DNA of 64,000 bases from a virus: positions 1-64,000 of the IMG/VR virus record IMGVR_UViG_3300046011_002684. One strand, 5' to 3'. Shown in pieces: positions 7,786 through 20,849 of the stretch (position 1 is its first letter; each line of letters begins with the position of its first letter). Made by a program: the position numbers and the translations under genes. Under the pieces are notes generated by a model. The model saw only the letters and a program-made list of their open reading frames with translations. It was not told where the DNA came from and did no database searches.

Positions 7786-7861
7786 TGGTGCCGGCACGAG
7801 GCTTCGAACCCCGGACCTGATGCTTACAAGGCAACTGCTCTACCAACTGAGCTATACCGGC
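7786..7861 (-). tRNA. tRNA-Thr(UGU)
   Basis: Cloverleaf, loop CUUGUAA, CCA encoded. Confidence 0.95.
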
Positions 7862-7894
7862 ATTGGTGATACACTAATATGTATCACCTTTTAT

Positions 7895-8785
7895 TTACTT
7901 AATACCTAAGCGAGCCAAAGTTTTTGGTCCAGCAATACCATCAGCGGTAAGACCATTGCGGGTCTGCCATTCCTTTAGTTTTGCTTCAGTAGCAGGACCA
8001 AAATCCCCATCAGCTTTTAGATTCAAAGCTGCCTGGAGTTTCTCAACGATTTTACCCTTTGAACCAATCTTAACGGTAGTTGGCTCAGCAACTTTTGCAG
8101 CAGGTGTGGCAGGAGCAGCAGCTTTTGCAGCAGGTGCAGCAGCGCTTACCTTACCACCAAGAATAGCAAGAGCTTTTTCCCAGCGCTGTTGGCGATCAGC
8201 AAGACCGATATCACCACCATTAATGATCTTAGTCATTTTGACAATGTCACCAGTGTCTGCAATTGCATTCAGCTTCTTATTGCCCCAGAACCAGCAAGCA
8301 CTTTCAATCGCACCTTTTTCGGTTGCAACATATTCAGCTGCTTCTTCTGCAGTCATACCAACAGACTTACCAAAGGCGGTATAGTTATCACGCCCAGTAA
8401 GCTGCTTTAGACCACGGCCGCGGAATCTCCAGCCGTCACCTTCTTTTACGTTACCCATCTTTGACTTACGGAATTCGTCCATATAGACATAGTTAGCGAT
8501 CTTCTCTGGGTTGCGAGCATACTCTTTTGCATCACGCTTACCAGCACCAGTACCAAAGTAACGACCAAACACTTTCAAAAGTGTTTCTTCTTTATAATTT
8601 AAATTTTCTTCAAGTGCAGTAAAGTTTGCGCTTTCGTGCGCGCACTGTGCGATGAAACCAGCAATACGGTTTGGAGTATTAATCTCGTACTTAGGAAAAA
8701 GTTCCGTCATGGCTTTATACCATGCGGAAGCATTCTTATTGCCAGGAATCATAGCTGCAAGATGTTCTTCTTTGAAAAAATCCAT
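7895..8785 (-). CDS. GH19 endolysin with C-terminal peptidoglycan-binding domain
   Basis: FIAQCAHES, FRGRGLKQLTGRDNY, INGG; Ala-rich linker; DGDFGPAT/DGIAGPKT PG-binding repeats. Confidence 0.92.
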   Translation of the reverse strand: MDFFKEEHLAAMIPGNKNASAWYKAMTELFPKYEINTPNRIAGFIAQCAHESANFTALEENLNYKEETLLKVFGRYFGTGAGKRDAKEYARNPEKIANYVYMDEFRKSKMGNVKEGDGWRFRGRGLKQLTGRDNYTAFGKSVGMTAEEAAEYVATEKGAIESACWFWGNKKLNAIADTGDIVKMTKIINGGDIGLADRQQRWEKALAILGGKVSAAAPAAKAAAPATPAAKVAEPTTVKIGSKGKIVEKLQAALNLKADGDFGPATEAKLKEWQTRNGLTADGIAGPKTLARLGIK

Positions 8786-8807
8786 ATGAGCCCCTATGAA
8801 ATATGAT

Positions 8808-8880
8808 TGGAGCGGGTGGCCAGAATCGAACTGGTCTCCTACAGCTTGGAAGGCTGGTTGGCTACCATAGCCTCACCCGC
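8808..8880 (-). tRNA. tRNA-Gly(UCC)
   Basis: Cloverleaf, loop CUUCCAA, U73, CCA. Confidence 0.92.
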
Positions 8881-8996
8881 ATAAGCGCTCGTCTCTCCGA
8901 GCTGTCACACCGATCCATAGAGCCGGAGCCAAGGACCACTTCACGCTAGTGTAACGTGGGTTAGACTCATATCATGTACTATCCACAAATTAATAA

Positions 8997-9082
8997 CTGG
9001 ATGGTCTGTGGACCTCGATGATACTATCATAACCGCTTGAACATGTAAGTTACCTTACTTGCTTGGTTGCAGTATCCATCCA
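8997..9082 (-). ncRNA. Y-like small RNA, copy 1
   Basis: Minus strand UGGAUGG-AUAC-UGCAA ... CCAUCCA-G; same terminal stem and motif as six other copies. Confidence 0.55.
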
Positions 9083-9095
9083 AATAGTATATATG

Positions 9096-9527
9096 TTAAA
9101 TTTCAGTCCAAGCTTTTACTTTATCGCAGTGAGCTTTCCAAGGTTCTGCATCATACTCATAACGCATACGCTCTCTGTTCCATTTCTTACTCAGTTTGCC
9201 AGCAGTTGGTCCGTACTTGTTTACCATCTCGCATACACGAGGAAGGACGTAAGCACGAAGCACCATAGGATCGTGGCACTTGTTCTCAATGGTCTTATAT
9301 TCTTTACCAGCAAGATAAGCACGAGCAAGGAAGGTAGCACGATTCTCGTTACGCACTTCCCAACGACGGTGAGTGCTCAAAGAACGATAAAGTGAAGCTT
9401 CTTTTTCAAATGGTTGCTGACGGTCTTTGTGCCAGTTCATTTGTCTCTTTACTTTACGCTCTTCAAAACGAATGATACGAGCTTCTTCTGAAAGGTGTTT
9501 AGATTTAATTTTAAGTTCTACAGACAT
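9096..9527 (-). CDS. basic protein of unknown function behind an amber-containing leader
   Basis: 143-aa ORF with AGGAG RBS that is complementary to the upstream uORF end. Confidence 0.8.
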   Translation of the reverse strand: MSVELKIKSKHLSEEARIIRFEERKVKRQMNWHKDRQQPFEKEASLYRSLSTHRRWEVRNENRATFLARAYLAGKEYKTIENKCHDPMVLRAYVLPRVCEMVNKYGPTAGKLSKKWNRERMRYEYDAEPWKAHCDKVKAWTEI

Positions 9528-9576
9528 TTTATTCTCCTAAATTGGTTCATTGGTTCTTCATAATGTAAGGCCCAAT

Positions 9577-9615
9577 TTAGGGCGGTCTAGTAATCTACAA
9601 GTGATATCTCTTCAT
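9577..9615 (-). promoter_or_regulatory. uORF MKRYHL-UAG-ITRPP-UAA, candidate amber-readthrough translational switch
   Basis: AAGGAG RBS 8 nt before ATG; CCUAAAUUGG at the uORF end pairs 10/10 with CCAAUUUAGG over the downstream SD. Confidence 0.7.
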
Positions 9616-9770
9616 TTGTATTTCTCCTTTATTAAAGGTTAGTTATCCGACTCCAAACATGCACTACCTGAGAAGGTTTTTATCGGTTTTACCAGCATGT
9701 TCCGTGGTTAATATAAGAATTCATGAGTTGTCTCGGTTACTCTCATGGGTTACTTATAACGTCGAATTGG

Positions 9771-9848
9771 TGGTGGCCCAAGCGGGATTCGAACCCGCGA
9801 CCGTGAGTTTTAGAGACTCGCGCTCTTACCAAGCTGAGCTATTAGGCC
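9771..9848 (-). tRNA. tRNA with CUA anticodon (amber suppressor)
   Basis: Canonical D and T arms, acceptor GGCCUAA/UUGGGCC, A73, loop CUCUAAA. Confidence 0.88.
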
Positions 9849-10115
9849 TTATTTCTCGCTACTACCAAAGAAGAAGTTAATGATAGTAGAAACCGCAGTA
9901 CCAAGCAAAAATCCTAGGATAATATTGGCAAAGTTTTCTCCCGCTGGTGGCACTGTAACGAATGTCACTGCAAAGAAATAAATGGCACTAATAATGCCCC
10001 AGAACCAAGCAAACCAATAGGTGAAGTGAACTGCCACTTTATCACCCTTTTTGACTAGTTCTGCATGTACATTCTTTAAAGACCCATCTTCGATAATTTC
10101 TTTATTTTCTTCCAT
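9849..10115 (-). CDS. small membrane protein, possible holin
   Basis: Two TM helices ending GFLLGTAVSTIINFFFGSS; about 1 kb from the endolysin. Confidence 0.5.
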   Translation of the reverse strand: MEENKEIIEDGSLKNVHAELVKKGDKVAVHFTYWFAWFWGIISAIYFFAVTFVTVPPAGENFANIILGFLLGTAVSTIINFFFGSSEK

Positions 10116-10143
10116 CTCGAACCTTCCTACTGTTTATCTATAA

Positions 10144-10208
10144 CAGGATCGTTTTGTCCGCTAAGACATCCAATACGATTTAGCGTTTTTGTTTGCTGAA
10201 CCGATCCT
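10144..10208 (-). ncRNA. Y-like small RNA, copy 2
   Basis: AGGAUCG-GUUC-AGCAA ... CGAUCCU-G with inner CGCUAA/UUAGCG stem; near-identical to 13897-13960. Confidence 0.7.
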
Positions 10209-10215
10209 AAATTTT

Positions 10216-19998: not shown

Positions 19999-20033
19999 TG
20001 GGGTCATCGGACGAATCCTATCCCATACAGATA

Positions 20034-20049
20034 AATTGTCAAAGAGCGT
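20034..20049 (-). promoter_or_regulatory. boxA-like antitermination element
   Basis: ACGCTCTTTGACAATT, identical to 14428-14443. Confidence 0.7.
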
Positions 20050-20081
20050 GGGAGATTGATGTAATCGCTTCGTCCCGAAAT

Positions 20082-20114
20082 AAAAAAACCCTCCAGATCT
20101 TTCGATCGGAGGGT
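20082..20114 (-). terminator. Intrinsic terminator of the candidate attenuator
   Basis: ACCCUCC-GAUC-GAAA-GAUC-U-GGAGGGU followed by a U run. Confidence 0.85.
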
Positions 20115-20138
20115 CTTGGAATTCGATGTTAACTTGCG

Positions 20139-20252
20139 TTAACCGTTTCCGTAACCCTCCATGTATCCCATAATCCATTCACCACACACATGGAGTCGAT
20201 TGCATGGGAATGCATTCGAAATCTGGCGTTGATATGTAAACGGTTTATTCAT
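20139..20252 (-). promoter_or_regulatory. 37-codon leader peptide MNKPFTYQRQISNAFPCNRLHVCGEWIMGYMEGYGNG containing an antiterminator strand
   Basis: Lies between the promoter at 20309 and the terminator; internal GGAGGGU (20154-20160) duplicates the 3' terminator strand. Confidence 0.65.
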
Positions 20253-20345
20253 GGAAGTTTGTTATTCCTAGTTGGTGTTCTATTAGTATATATCATTCTA
20301 GGTTGCTTTGTAAACCCCCAAAATGAACTTTTTTCAAAAAAGATT

Positions 20346-20421
20346 TGGTGCTCCCAGTAGGACTCGAACCTACGATCAAGACGTTATGAGCGTCCGGCTT
20401 TAGCCGCTAAGCTATAGGAGC
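20346..20421 (-). tRNA. tRNA with CAU anticodon (Ile2 or elongator Met)
   Basis: Loop CUCAUAA, CCA. Confidence 0.9.
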
Positions 20422-20424
20422 AAT

Positions 20425-20515
20425 TGGTAGAAGTGGGTGGATTCGAACCACCTCAAAGGCGCTAATCTGGCGCAAAGAGTTTATAAGACTCCTCTGACTA
20501 CCAAGTCTCACTTCC
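20425..20515 (-). tRNA. tRNA-Ile(UAU), short D arm and long variable arm
   Basis: Loop CUUAUAA, canonical T arm, A73, CCA. Confidence 0.72.
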
Positions 20516-20516
20516 A

Positions 20517-20669
20517 TTATTTGTTATTCAAGGTTTTGATTCTTTCTTTAATCCAGTTTACAACCGTTAGCCATTCTTCATCTTGATATGTAATATCTAC
20601 TGTTTCAAGATTACTGAGTGCGATCATAAGACCGTGTTGTTCAGAATAGTCTAGACTGGATTTAGCCAT
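20517..20669 (-). CDS. 50-aa hypothetical protein
   Basis: GAGG RBS; fills the gap between two tRNAs. Confidence 0.55.
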   Translation of the reverse strand: MAKSSLDYSEQHGLMIALSNLETVDITYQDEEWLTVVNWIKERIKTLNNK

Positions 20670-20684
20670 TACAACCTCTAGATT

Positions 20685-20767
20685 TGGTACGGGCACCCGG
20701 ACTCGAACCGGGATGCATTAAGCGAGAGATTTTAAGTCTCTTGTGGCTACCGTTTCACCATGCCCGC
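20685..20767 (-). tRNA. tRNA-Leu(UAA)
   Basis: Loop CUUAAAA, long variable arm, CCA. Confidence 0.93.
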
Positions 20768-20773
20768 ATAGAT

Positions 20774-20849
20774 TGGCGGTCCCTGAAGGATTCGAACCCT
20801 CGACCCACTGCTTAGAAGGCAGTTGCTCTATCCACTGAGCTAAGGAACC
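20774..20849 (-). tRNA. tRNA-Arg(UCU)
   Basis: Loop CUUCUAA, A20, CCA. Confidence 0.95.

What the first reader, a model, noticed from the sequence alone, without database searches (positions are those of the whole stretch)
7786..20849. The tRNA island reads as an integrated translation-surveillance module
Seen together in 13 kb: 37 tRNAs for all 20 amino acids, an amber tRNA, an amber sensor, a codon-diverse attenuator, boxA sites, a nonstop-type ORF, tRNA mimics, a Ro-like protein and a HAD phosphatase, with tmRNA elsewhere in the window. Inference: separate sensors for elongation, termination and rescue, each wired to a countermeasure against host translation shut-off.
Basis: inference. Interest (0 to 1): 0.7.

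Follow-up and report, generated by a model that had tools for sequence, protein, structure and literature searches.

The report
Phage tRNA island with translation switches
A lake phage's block of 33 to 37 tRNA genes also holds several small RNA and mini-gene devices, each kept in related phages, that seem to respond to how ribosomes read, stop and get rescued, but they look like separate parts, not one wired module.

Summary
Observation partly confirmed, interpretation partly supported. The stretch is the tRNA island of an uncultured, T4-like freshwater phage (90-kb fragment). It has 33 firm tRNAs and 4 weaker or defective ones.

Four embedded devices have comparative support:
1. An amber-suppressor tRNA(CUA) followed by a mini-ORF with an in-frame TAG, a Pro-Pro-stop and a hairpin that hides the ribosome site of a 143-aa gene. 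This layout is kept in 18 of 21 related loci and two cultured phages.
2. A DUF2828 "Ro-like" protein with seven Y-like RNAs that share a covarying stem plus a CAGCAA motif. The motif also occurs beside this protein in seven distant phages.
3. A 48-aa basic ORF whose stop codon always lies inside tRNA-Lys(UUU).
4. A 19-amino-acid leader ORF plus terminator. The scan found such attenuators before on other DNA.

A permuted tmRNA lies 42 kb away. boxA and the HAD phosphatase are not supported, and TAG is not recoded.

The devices assort independently. DUF2828 occurs in 710 phage records, the 143-aa gene in 3, and one complete genome has the amber cassette without DUF2828. No output is known, and the polarity of the amber switch does not fit a shut-off alarm. 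I found no description of the amber cassette or the CAGCAA RNAs in print.

The parts
7786..20849 (-). tRNA island: 33 firm tRNA genes plus 4 weak or defective tRNA-like genes, in several transcription units
   Evidence: ARAGORN, Rfam, reading of 18056-18143
9771..9848 (-). tRNA with anticodon CUA (amber suppressor type)
   Evidence: ARAGORN and Rfam, 66.1 bits. Kept in L013, L014, L016 and L017, in 16 of 22 gene-X loci, and in BUCT-ZZ01 and DSS3_MAL1
9577..9615 (-). mini-ORF MKRYHL-TAG-ITRPP-TAA, with the in-frame amber codon at 9595-9597
   Evidence: Sequence. Conserved in frame, with variable residues and synonymous Pro codons, in 18 of 21 loci that have upstream sequence, in L013, and in BUCT-ZZ01 and DSS3_MAL1
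9536..9581 (-). hairpin: 5' strand 9572-9581 (overlaps the mini-ORF stop) pairs with 9536-9545 (part of the Shine-Dalgarno site of the 143-aa gene)
   Evidence: 10-bp helix here. Mean 9.7 bp in 18 loci against 5.6 bp for shuffled SD regions, with different sequences in different lineages
9096..9527 (-). 143-aa gene X of unknown function, controlled by the amber mini-ORF
   Evidence: ORF. 864 protein clusters, highly conserved N-terminus. No Pfam, PHROG, NCBIfam, PDB or Atlas match
15126..16556 (-). DUF2828 plus DUF7788 (vWA) protein, phrog_850 'RNA-binding protein', distantly Ro60-like
   Evidence: Pfam, PHROG E 2e-145. Atlas: 26 of 30 hits are TROVE clusters. Mycobacteriophage homologues are annotated 'Ro-like'. 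hhalign against the Bxz1 TROVE protein: 71% probability, E 3.7e-5, vWA part only
16675..16750 (-). Y-like RNA 1 (stem GGATCG/CGATCC, CAGCAT motif)
16570..16655 (-). Y-like RNA 2, directly upstream of the DUF2828 start. Its 3' strand abuts the Shine-Dalgarno site, and it contains a T-arm-like hairpin
   Evidence: Helix covariation 91 of 91 cells paired, 5 of 7 pairs compensatory
14995..15092 (-). Y-like RNA 3: the terminal stem encloses a tRNA-like body with D arm, anticodon arm (UCU) and T arm but a defective acceptor stem
   Evidence: Rfam tRNA 55.7 bits with 4 non-canonical acceptor pairs, sequence. The same element follows the gene in L007-L010, L014 and L016
13898..13960 (-). Y-like RNA 4
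13034..13246 (-). Y-like RNA 5: a 9-bp stem enclosing a permuted tRNA-like body (T arm, 3' acceptor strand plus CCA, insert, 5' acceptor strand)
   Evidence: The permuted layout was read by eye only
10145..10208 (-). Y-like RNA 6 (twin of RNA 4)
   Evidence: Repeat family D17
8998..9082 (-). Y-like RNA 7 (stem GGATGG/CCATCC, CTGCAA variant)
18667..18813 (-). 48-aa basic ORF whose stop codon ends at position 14 of tRNA-Lys(UUU), which spans 18605-18680
   Evidence: Same arrangement in 8 of 9 loci and 14 of 15 loci. 134 protein clusters
20139..20252 (-). 37-codon leader ORF with 19 different amino acids
   Evidence: P about 0.04 against 37-aa windows of the phage's own proteins
20082..20113 (-). 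intrinsic terminator hairpin plus U-run after the leader ORF. Its 5' strand can instead pair with GGAGGGUU inside the leader
   Evidence: Folds of -33.8 kcal/mol against -27.3 kcal/mol
14464..14492 (-). one of five copies of a conserved promoter (GGGGGTTTACA, 17-18 nt, TATATT or TATACT). The others are 20285-20314, 18974-19002, 16774-16802 and 11040-11068
   Evidence: Repeat families D8 and D11, promoter scan 10 of 12 matches each
17444..17794 (-).
   Evidence: phrog_4256 and phrog_4919, both 'unknown function'. No Pfam or NCBIfam hit
62847..63283 (-). permuted (two-piece) tmRNA gene, tag ANDNFAPKAYALAA
   Evidence: ARAGORN, Rfam RF04321 124.4 bits and RF01849 120.7 bits. No SmpB on the 90-kb contig

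Best explanation
The interval is the tRNA island of a T4-like freshwater phage. It is a mosaic accessory region that gives the phage a near-complete tRNA set of its own. Into it are inserted at least four separately inherited devices that couple gene expression or RNA handling to the state of translation.

(1) tRNA-operated translational switch. The phage makes tRNA(CUA). A mini-ORF just downstream carries an in-frame UAG. Only if the UAG is decoded does the ribosome run 4-6 codons further to a slow Pro-Pro-stop. That stop lies on the 5' strand of a hairpin that hides the Shine-Dalgarno site of the 143-aa gene X, so readthrough opens the site and gene X is translated. The layout, conservation and coding signature are shown. 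The opening mechanism is inferred.

(2) Ro-like particle. A DUF2828/vWA protein probably binds a family of small RNAs defined by a closing helix plus an unpaired (U/A)CAGCAA motif. Some of these RNAs carry tRNA-like bodies. One copy overlaps the protein's own ribosome site, which suggests autoregulation. Binding is inferred.

(3) Nonstop-type message. A 48-aa basic peptide gene has no stop codon of its own before tRNA-Lys(UUU). Cleavage by RNase P at the tRNA 5' end would leave a nonstop message, so the amount of peptide would depend on trans-translation. This is inferred by analogy with arfA.

(4) Attenuator. A leader ORF using 19 amino acids, followed by a terminator with an alternative pairing, could raise read-through into downstream tRNA genes when decoding is slow. 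This is inferred.

The devices share a neighbourhood because the tRNA island is where such phages keep RNA and translation accessories, not because they form one obligate circuit.
For: tRNA set and tmRNA.

No recoding: TAG ends 17 of 130 ORFs on the - strand.

Amber cassette:
- In 22 gene-X loci, 16 have tRNA(CUA) upstream, 16 have an ATG mini-ORF with in-frame TAG and Pro-Pro-stop, and 2 more have TTG-TAG. None has the tRNA without the mini-ORF.
- After the TAG the frame, the 4-6 codon length and the Pro-Pro are kept while the nucleotides vary, including synonymous CCN codons.
- The anti-SD helix averages 9.7 bp against 5.6 bp shuffled, and starts 13-27 nt after the TAG.
- The cassette is present in the cultured phages BUCT-ZZ01 and DSS3_MAL1.

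Ro-like system:
-.
- Helix covariation: 91 of 91 cells paired, 5 of 7 pairs compensatory, 0 of 500 shuffles as high.
- Stem plus CAGCAA elements: 4 in the island (0.2 expected) and 0 in the other 42.8 kb. There are 2-5 per locus in KVP40, S13, Mushroom, phiM12, LMTA-148, Appletree2 and BUCT-ZZ01 (0.15-0.45 expected), and 0 in the DSS3_MAL1 locus.
- A signature scan gives 6 in the island, 1 elsewhere and 0 on the + strand (0.9 expected).
- DUF2828 lies next to tRNA arrays in KVP40, S13, Mushroom, LMTA-148 and phiM12.

Nonstop-type ORF.

Attenuator.

Independent assortment.
Against: - No expression or processing data. The four RNA libraries are held only as contigs, which cannot show starts, ends or levels.
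- The Pfam TROVE model does not match the DUF2828 protein. The hhalign match to a true TROVE protein covers only the vWA half, at 71% probability.
- The loci for the helix count were partly chosen by complementarity, which inflates the percentage of paired cells.
- The attenuator is weakly supported. P is about 0.04 for amino-acid diversity. It is present in 3 of 6 loci compared. In the window, 560 nt antisense to a + strand gene lie between it and the next tRNA.
- The peptide is not related to ArfA.
- The contig is an estimated 51% of a genome, so absences are provisional.
Confidence: 0.6

Rival explanations
1. The island is one integrated surveillance module, with separate sensors for elongation (attenuator), termination (amber mini-ORF) and rescue (nonstop ORF, tmRNA). 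Each sensor switches on a countermeasure against host translation shut-off, and the Ro-like particle and tRNA mimics act as decoys or repair platforms.
For: - All the parts co-occur in one clade: contigs behind L014/L034/L067, L016/L044/L071, L017/L045/L073 and L010/L039/L078 each hold DUF2828, gene X and the peptide ORF.
- In BUCT-ZZ01 the tRNA(CUA) cassette, a permuted tmRNA and DUF2828 lie within 7 kb.
- Of 5 more distant cassette contigs, 3 also hold DUF2828, and all 5 carry 10-31 tRNAs.
- In Listeria phage LMTA-148, RtcB lies 1.3 kb from DUF2828.
- Phage tRNAs are known to counter tRNA-cutting defences (PMC10264068 and PMC11464382, abstracts in the listing).
Against: - Independent assortment outside the clade.
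- The outputs are unknown proteins.
- The amber switch is on when decoding works, not when it fails.
- The tmRNA is 42 kb away in this phage.
- There is no SmpB, RF-1/ArfB, RtcB or CCA enzyme on the contig.
- boxA and HAD are not supported.
- Unrelated cell-wall and nuclease genes are interspersed.
Confidence: 0.15
2. An ordinary tRNA island. The tRNAs only adjust codon supply, and the small ORFs, repeats and tRNA-like pieces are decaying tRNA copies, promoters and neutral filler with no sensing function.
For: - Large tRNA clusters with pseudo-tRNAs and small hypothetical ORFs are standard in KVP40, S13 and Felix O1-like phages.
- Several tRNA-like pieces here have defective acceptor stems.
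- The ORF just upstream of the peptide gene is not conserved.
- boxA-like matches are at chance level.
Against: - Compensatory changes in the Y-like helix and in the anti-SD helix.
- Coding-type conservation after the in-frame TAG.
- The invariant placement of the peptide's stop codon inside tRNA-Lys.
- The recurrence of the CAGCAA motif beside DUF2828 in seven distant phages.
Confidence: 0.1
3. The amber tRNA mainly exists to make C-terminally extended forms of phage proteins whose genes end in TAG. The mini-ORF is only a gauge that balances suppressor level through gene X.
For: - TAG ends 17 of 130 ORFs.
- The aminotransferase 21573-22787 ends in TAG, and the 93-aa ORF 21267-21548 follows in the same frame.
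Against: - Most read-through tails are short: 13 of 17 are at most 19 residues.
- The conserved partner of tRNA(CUA) across distant phages is the mini-ORF plus gene X.
- No conserved extension was tested.
Confidence: 0.15

Closest known systems
tRNA gene clusters of large lytic phages (T4, KVP40, T5, Felix O1-like, mycobacteriophage Bxz1)
   Same: Tens of tRNA genes on one strand, in an accessory region with small ORFs and pseudo-tRNAs. They are thought to supply codons or replace tRNAs lost to host defences (PMC10264068, abstract in the listing).
   Different: Here, and in relatives, the island also holds an amber tRNA with its own reporter mini-ORF, and a peptide gene fused to tRNA-Lys. I did not find either described.
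Ro60/Rsr with Y RNAs (YrlA), including those of mycobacteriophages (Chen et al. 2014, PMC4201824, passages read)
   Same: - A vWA-containing RNA-binding-type protein encoded next to small RNAs.
- The RNAs have a conserved closing helix, and some have a tRNA-like body.
- A Listeria phage homologue has Rsr as its best HHpred match and three abundant RNAs upstream (PMC12282133, passage read).
   Different: - The protein matches DUF2828 and DUF7788, not the TROVE model.
- The RNAs do not match Rfam YrlA or any other Rfam family up to E 1.
- The motif is a helix plus CAGCAA.
- There are seven copies per genome, scattered among the tRNA genes.
Stop-codon-recoded phages with suppressor tRNAs (crAss-like and Lak phages; preprint 10.1101/2021.08.26.457843, abstract in the listing)
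   Same: A phage-encoded tRNA that reads UAG.
   Different: The genome is not recoded. The only conserved in-frame UAG seen is in a 7-14 codon regulatory mini-ORF.
Translational control by a leader ORF that opens an SD-sequestering hairpin (erm/cat-type translation attenuation; recalled, no paper read)
   Same: The position of a ribosome in a short upstream ORF decides whether the downstream ribosome site is free.
   Different: The trigger is decoding of a stop codon by a dedicated phage tRNA, not drug- or amino-acid-dependent stalling.
arfA and brfA: rescue factors made from nonstop mRNA (PMC10107115 and PMC6881298, abstracts in the listing)
   Same: A small basic protein gene whose mature message would lack a stop codon, so its product would escape tagging only when trans-translation is limiting.
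   Different: - No sequence relation to ArfA (hhalign probability 0.1%).
- The stop codon would be removed by tRNA 5' processing, not by RNase III or a terminator.
- The function is unknown.
Leader-peptide transcription attenuators of amino-acid operons (trpL, hisL; recalled), and the earlier scan notes on phage tRNA arrays (e1-6107058, e1-5786261, e1-5912714)
   Same: Promoter, short translated ORF, terminator and a competing pairing.
   Different: There is no run of one regulatory codon. 19 different amino acids are used, and the controlled genes would be tRNAs.

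Membership tests
Phage tRNA island | Many tRNA genes clustered on one strand of a phage genome | tested here: met
   33 ARAGORN tRNAs in 13 kb, all on the - strand. The contig is an IMG/VR virus record. Relatives share the order.
Ro60/TROVE protein | Match to the TROVE domain model (PF05731) | tested here: not met
   Pfam gives DUF2828 and DUF7788 only. The profile search of PDB has TROVE proteins as best hits, but at E 0.24.
Ro60/TROVE protein | C-terminal vWA domain with MIDAS motif, homologous to that of Ro60 | tested here: met
   hhalign against the Bxz1 TROVE protein: 71% probability, E 3.7e-5, 157 columns including DVSGSM. D277, S279 and S281 are invariant.
Ro60/TROVE protein | Ring of helical repeats with a central cavity | not testable with these tools
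The Atlas holds no model.
Y RNA / YrlA | Match to Rfam Y RNA or YrlA models | tested here: not met
   The only YrlA hit (31 bits, cut-off 69) spans the tandem tRNA-Pro and tRNA-Trp. This is a known artefact (PMC4201824).
Y RNA / YrlA | Small RNAs encoded near the Ro-type gene, with a conserved closing helix and a tRNA-like module | tested here: met
   Seven elements within 8998-16750. Covarying helix. Rfam tRNA 55.7 bits for the body of 14995-15092.
Recoded (TAG-reassigned) phage genome | Genes interrupted by in-frame TAG under the standard code | tested here: not met
   Dense long ORFs under table 11. TAG ends 17 of 130 ORFs.
Leader-peptide transcription attenuator | Promoter, translated leader, terminator, and an antiterminator overlapping the leader | tested here: inconclusive
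   All elements are present in silico. The arrangement is conserved in L016, analogous in L017 and absent at that place in L003, L011 and L013.
ArfA-type rescue factor | Sequence homology to ArfA | tested here: not met
   hhalign probability 0.1%. No Pfam or PDB hit.
ArfA/BrfA-type regulation | [quoted passage not shown] | not testable with these tools
   The stop codon lies at tRNA-Lys position 14, 15 or 24 in 8 of 9 and 14 of 15 loci. Cleavage by RNase P is inferred.
tmRNA | Match to tmRNA models, with a tag reading frame | tested here: met
   RF04321 124.4 bits and RF01849 120.7 bits. ARAGORN tag ANDNFAPKAYALAA.
boxA antitermination site | boxA consensus in the transcribed leader, above chance and conserved | tested here: not met
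   25 matches against 28.9 expected at up to 3 mismatches. The exact 13-mer is in only 2 of 88 loci. It contains a TTGACA that the scan scores as a -35 hexamer.
HAD phosphatase | Match to a HAD family model | tested here: not met
   No Pfam hit at E up to 10 and no NCBIfam hit at E up to 1. The PHROGs matched are of unknown function.

The most novel reading that the evidence does not exclude
Large phages carry a toolkit that reads out the working state of the translation apparatus through the phage's own RNAs:
- a suppressor tRNA that exists chiefly to operate a stop-codon-gated switch on one gene;
- Ro-like particles loaded with RNAs that display tRNA anticodon arms (Arg UCU, Thr UGU), as decoys or sensors for tRNA-cutting defences;
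- a peptide made from a message that tRNA processing leaves without a stop codon;
- an all-amino-acid leader attenuator.

Together these would let the phage detect and answer host attacks on tRNAs, termination and ribosome rescue.
Probability: 0.18. Interest if true: 0.9.

Novelty: new variant of a known kind. Interest (0 to 1): 0.74.

Why it matters
Why phages carry tRNA genes has been argued for decades. This island suggests that, besides supplying tRNAs, such regions hold conserved regulatory devices built from tRNAs themselves.

The amber cassette would be a natural gene switch operated by a suppressor tRNA in a genome that still uses UAG as a stop. It is directly testable, because it occurs in two cultured phages, BUCT-ZZ01 and DSS3_MAL1. 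The record of BUCT-ZZ01 names Synechococcus elongatus PCC 7942 as host. The DSS3_MAL1 record names no host, but its name points to Ruegeria pomeroyi DSS-3.

The helix-plus-CAGCAA RNA motif gives a candidate RNA partner to a protein family found in 710 sequenced phages. These include Felix O1-like, KVP40-like, Listeria P100-like and mycobacterial phages that are used in research and biocontrol.

Tried and rejected
Genome-wide TAG recoding: rejected.

Rfam YrlA hit at 19224-19335: rejected as a tandem-tRNA artefact (warning in PMC4201824).

ARAGORN intron mode's tRNA-Lys with a 598-nt intron at 11099-11773: rejected as spurious, because it spans the radical SAM gene.

ArfA homology of the 48-aa peptide: I recalled a resemblance. 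It was not supported by Pfam, PDB or hhalign.

boxA: rejected.

HAD: not supported.

The 40-aa ORF 18823-18945 as the attenuator: rejected, because it is not conserved in 12 loci.

Function of gene X: Pfam, PHROGs, NCBIfam, a PDB profile search and the Atlas all gave nothing. The PDB hits to cellulases at E 0.22 are taken as chance.

A loose regular expression for Y-like stems gave about 3.6 chance hits per contig. It was replaced by stricter scans.

Identity of the amino acid carried by tRNA(CUA): pairwise identity to the other tRNAs gave no clear parent (best 0.77, to the long-arm UAU tRNA). Left open.

RNA libraries: four freshwater metatranscriptome runs hold contigs 90-99% like parts of 8900-17000, among them 9454-9795, 13896-14272 and 16474-16750. 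They are contigs with small word shares (0.06-0.10). They show neither transcription, ends nor levels, and stretches without cover mean nothing.

tmRNA search with the standard model in five named phages: nothing over the cut-off. The permuted gene of BUCT-ZZ01 was found by ARAGORN only.

Literature:
- 'DUF2828' gave 5 papers, none on phages.
- The searches gave no paper on an amber mini-ORF coupled to a phage suppressor tRNA.
- Supplementary tables of PMC4201824, which list the phages with YrlA, were not open. They might show whether any DUF2828 phage was covered.
- The statement that C-terminal Pro-Pro slows termination and provokes tmRNA tagging is recalled. Only listings were seen (PMC8129111 and PMC7246954).

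Full report
WHAT THE DNA IS

The window is the first 64 kb of a 90,207-bp IMG/VR virus record, rated about 51% complete. Nearly all genes lie on the - strand. T4-type late promoters (TATAAATA) occur, for example just before the nuclease gene at about 14990. The ribonucleotide reductase is closest to those of phages of alphaproteobacteria, and the tmRNA is of the permuted alpha type. Metatranscriptome and metagenome runs that hold small parts of the stretch are from fresh water and waste water (small word shares). No close relative is in the named-phage collection.

THE tRNA COUNT

ARAGORN finds 33 tRNAs between 7786 and 20849, all on the - strand. Rfam at gathering score also finds 33. Thirty are shared and three are extra: 15004-15072, 11102-11173 and 14247-14319. 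The three ARAGORN calls that Rfam misses at gathering score are:
- Asn 18352-18429;
- Ala 13815-13888;
- the 91-nt UAU tRNA 20425-20515.

One more, 18056-18143, has an acceptor stem, CCA and a GUA anticodon loop by eye, but reaches only 32 bits on the tRNA-Sec model. Four of these are weak:
- 15004-15072 has a defective acceptor stem and sits inside a Y-like stem;
- 11102-11173 is a diverged copy of tRNA-Pro, 76% identical (repeat family D15);
- tyrosine rests on the sub-threshold call 18056-18143;
- 14247-14319 scores only 31.1 bits, just above the cut-off of 29.

TAG ends 17 of 130 non-overlapping ORFs on the - strand, so the genome is not recoded.

THE AMBER CASSETTE

tRNA(CUA) at 9771-9848 scores 66 bits. 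Downstream, after a Shine-Dalgarno site, lies the mini-ORF 9577-9615, which reads MKRYHL-TAG-ITRPP-TAA. Its last codons and the next bases (9572-9581) pair over 10 bp with 9536-9545, which is part of the ribosome site of the 143-aa gene X (9096-9527).

Homologues of gene X were found in 30 viral loci, and I examined 22 of them:
- 16 have tRNA(CUA) within 3 kb upstream, often 110-190 nt before gene X.
- 16 have an ATG mini-ORF with an in-frame TAG followed by 4-6 codons ending in Pro-Pro and a stop. One variant reads Pro-Pro-Ala.
- 2 more (L051, L052) start with TTG directly followed by TAG.
- L048 is cut off 3 nt upstream of the gene.
- L056, L061 and L062, the most distant at 35-39% identity, have neither the tRNA nor the mini-ORF.
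- L043 has the mini-ORF but no tRNA(CUA) was called. L052 has an odd tRNA with a two-letter anticodon call.

After the TAG the nucleotides differ between lineages, while the frame, the length in whole codons and Pro-Pro are kept, with synonymous CCN codons. That is a coding signature, and it requires the UAG to be decoded.

The anti-SD helix is present with different sequences in different lineages. It averages 9.7 bp against 5.6 bp for shuffled SD regions in 18 loci, with a range of 5-14 bp. Its 5' strand starts 13-27 nt after the TAG. A ribosome waiting at the UAG would therefore not reach the helix, whereas one at the second stop would sit on it. This last step is inferred from general knowledge of ribosome footprints.

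The same cassette is present in two cultured phages:
- Synechococcus phage BUCT-ZZ01: tRNA 6763-6838 of L064, mini-ORF MGGDAS-TAG-INLKPP-stop, gene X 6989-7390.
- Bacteriophage DSS3_MAL1: tRNA annotated 'Pyl' at 3814-3887 of L065, mini-ORF MKS-TAG-IRPPP-stop, and a 10-bp anti-SD helix.

Gene X belongs to a family of 864 clusters with a very conserved N-terminus. It matches no family or structure.

THE Ro-LIKE PROTEIN AND ITS RNAs

The 476-aa protein at 15126-16556 matches DUF2828 and DUF7788 and phrog_850 'RNA-binding protein' over its full length. The family is very large: 5895 representatives at E up to 0.001. It occurs in 710 of 50,697 phage records. Mycobacteriophage members are annotated 'Ro-like RNA binding protein'.

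The evidence that it is Ro-like is indirect:
- With its own families excluded, 26 of 30 Atlas feature hits are TROVE clusters, at score 0.93.
- A family profile aligns with the true TROVE protein of mycobacteriophage Bxz1 at 71% probability and E 3.7e-5, but only over the vWA half.
- PDB profile hits to TROVE and Ro60 chains are not significant, at E 0.24 to 1.3.

Seven small elements on the - strand between 8998 and 16750 share a layout: (A/U)G, a 5-7-nt stem, 1-4 nt, then C(A/C/U)GCA(A/U), a variable body, the stem complement, C(U/A), then G. A signature scan finds six of them, one likely chance hit elsewhere on that strand and none on the + strand, against 0.9 expected per strand. The seventh, 14995-15092, has a U-U outer pair.

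One element lies directly before the start codon of the DUF2828 gene. The same holds in relatives down to 43% protein identity. On 13 such sequences the 7-bp helix is paired in 91 of 91 cells. Five of 7 pairs show changes on both sides, and 0 of 500 shuffles reach the observed covariation. A caveat applies: some coordinates came from a script that required complementarity.

The motif also recurs in loci of distant phages that carry the protein. The count is given first, with the shuffled expectation in brackets:
- KVP40: 5 (0.45)
- S13: 2 (0.40)
- Mushroom: 3 (0.30)
- phiM12: 2 (0.15)
- Listeria LMTA-148: 3 (0.15), all within 340 nt upstream of the gene
- Mycobacterium Appletree2: 4 (0.25), three of them just downstream of the gene
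- BUCT-ZZ01: 5 (0.25)
- DSS3_MAL1 locus: 0
- The other 42.8 kb of this window: 0

A paper on a P100-like Listeria phage reports three very abundant RNAs within 2 kb upstream of a gene whose best HHpred match is Rsr, and suggests that they are Y RNAs (PMC12282133, passage read).

The bodies of three window elements are tRNA-like:
- 14995-15092: D, anticodon (UCU) and T arms, 55.7 bits.
- 16570-16655: a T arm.
- 13034-13246: a permuted arrangement, read by eye.

The protein gene lies beside tRNA arrays in KVP40, S13, Mushroom, LMTA-148 and phiM12, but not in Appletree2.

THE ORF THAT ENDS INSIDE tRNA-Lys

The 48-aa basic ORF 18667-18813 has its stop codon ending at position 14 of tRNA-Lys(UUU). 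The peptide is conserved as protein, with 22 invariant positions up to Leu42 in 7 sequences. Conservation ends where the tRNA begins.

In 8 of 9 relatives' loci (L006 lacks the ORF), and in 14 of 15 loci from a second scan, the stop lies at tRNA position 14, 15 or 24. Three loci of the second scan are on contigs already counted. L087 is a truncated homologue with no tRNA found. No member has a stop codon before the tRNA.

The family has 134 clusters. It has no Pfam or PDB match and no relation to E. coli ArfA. It is inferred that RNase P cutting leaves a nonstop message, and that the product therefore depends on trans-translation as arfA does (PMC10107115, abstract in the listing).

ATTENUATOR, PROMOTERS, boxA AND HAD

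Five copies of one promoter (GGGGGTTTACA, 17-18 nt, TATATT or TATACT) head the transcription units.

Behind the one at 20285-20314 lies a 37-codon ORF (20139-20252) that uses 19 different amino acids. The mean for 37-aa windows of this phage's own proteins is 15.9, and P is about 0.04. An intrinsic terminator follows at 20082-20113. The 5' strand of the terminator can instead pair with GGAGGGUU inside the leader. The unit is identical in L016. L017 has an analogous 28-codon leader and terminator directly before tRNA genes. L003, L011 and L013 lack it at that place. Earlier notes of this scan describe such leaders before phage tRNA arrays on other DNA. I treat them as leads only.

The two 'boxA' 13-mers are real, but they are at chance frequency, poorly conserved and contain a -35 hexamer.

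The 116-aa ORF has no HAD model match.

DO THE PARTS BELONG TOGETHER?

Within the clade they travel together. BUCT-ZZ01 has the amber cassette, a permuted tmRNA and DUF2828 within 7 kb. Five more distant cassette-bearing contigs carry 10-31 tRNAs each, and three of them hold DUF2828.

At larger distance the parts separate:
- Gene X is in 3 phage records and DUF2828 in 710.
- The complete DSS3_MAL1 genome lacks DUF2828.
- KVP40, Mushroom and LMTA-148 are not among the 3 records that hold gene X.

The contig holds no SmpB, RF-1/ArfB, RtcB or CCA-adding enzyme. The interval also holds an endolysin, a signal-peptide nuclease, a CHAP lipoprotein on the other strand and a B12/radical SAM enzyme.

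I therefore read the island as a mosaic of separately inherited devices that share a theme and a neighbourhood.

WHAT IS NEW

I found no paper on DUF2828 in phages. I also found none on a suppressor tRNA coupled to an amber mini-ORF in a genome that is not recoded. Ro/Y RNA pairs in phages, phage tmRNAs, phage tRNA islands and leader attenuators are known kinds.

LIMITS

- There are no raw RNA reads.
- Supplementary files were not open.
- The host is unknown.

Noticed in passing
window 17223-17443 (- strand): About 220 nt between the 116-aa ORF and tRNA-Arg(UCG) are almost invariant at nucleotide level in L014, L003, L017 and L010. The first 73 nt or so look tRNA-like (acceptor-type helix, T-loop-like hairpin, ends in CCA), but neither ARAGORN nor Rfam calls them. 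Probably another structured RNA.
   Followed up: partly
window 9616-9770 (- strand): A conserved spacer of about 150 nt lies between tRNA(CUA) and the amber mini-ORF in the window, L013, L016 and L017. In other relatives the mini-ORF follows the tRNA by about 20 nt, so the spacer is an insert of unknown role.
   Followed up: no
window 21267-22787 (- strand): The class III aminotransferase gene ends in TAG, and a 93-aa ORF follows in the same frame 8 codons later. The product could be extended when the amber tRNA is active.
   Followed up: no
window 18520-18600 (- strand): A cloverleaf-like element lies between the two tRNA-Lys genes. It has a 10-bp terminal helix, two hairpins and a good T arm, and no program calls it a tRNA.
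   Followed up: no
window 8808-8880, 13815-13888, 19034-19105: Three tRNAs (Gly UCC, Ala UGC, Met CAU) have their anticodon at position 31, which points to shortened D regions. Rfam scores two of them only 29.7 and 33.9 bits, and the third is missed at gathering score.
   Followed up: no
window 20425-20515: A 91-nt tRNA with a long variable arm and anticodon UAU (Ile AUA by ARAGORN). It is kept in L003 and L013. A type II body with this anticodon is unusual.
   Followed up: no
L031 9641-9716 (Sinorhizobium phage phiM12): ARAGORN calls a tRNA with anticodon UUA (ochre suppressor type) 2.2 kb downstream of the DUF2828 gene. The record annotates it as tRNA-TERM.
   Followed up: no
L032 8843-10053 (Listeria phage LMTA-148): An RtcB gene split in two annotated parts lies 1.3 kb downstream of the DUF2828 gene and its three CAGCAA elements. 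This resembles the bacterial rsr-yrlA-rtcBA arrangement.
   Followed up: no
window 14512-14955 (- strand): A staphylococcal-nuclease homologue with an N-terminal signal peptide sits behind a T4-type late promoter, in the middle of the tRNA island.
   Followed up: no
window 14311-14436 (- strand): A 41-codon TTG-start ORF behind the promoter at 14464-14492 ends in a TAG that lies inside the weak Met-like tRNA 14247-14319. This is a second case of a stop codon inside a tRNA-like gene.
   Followed up: no
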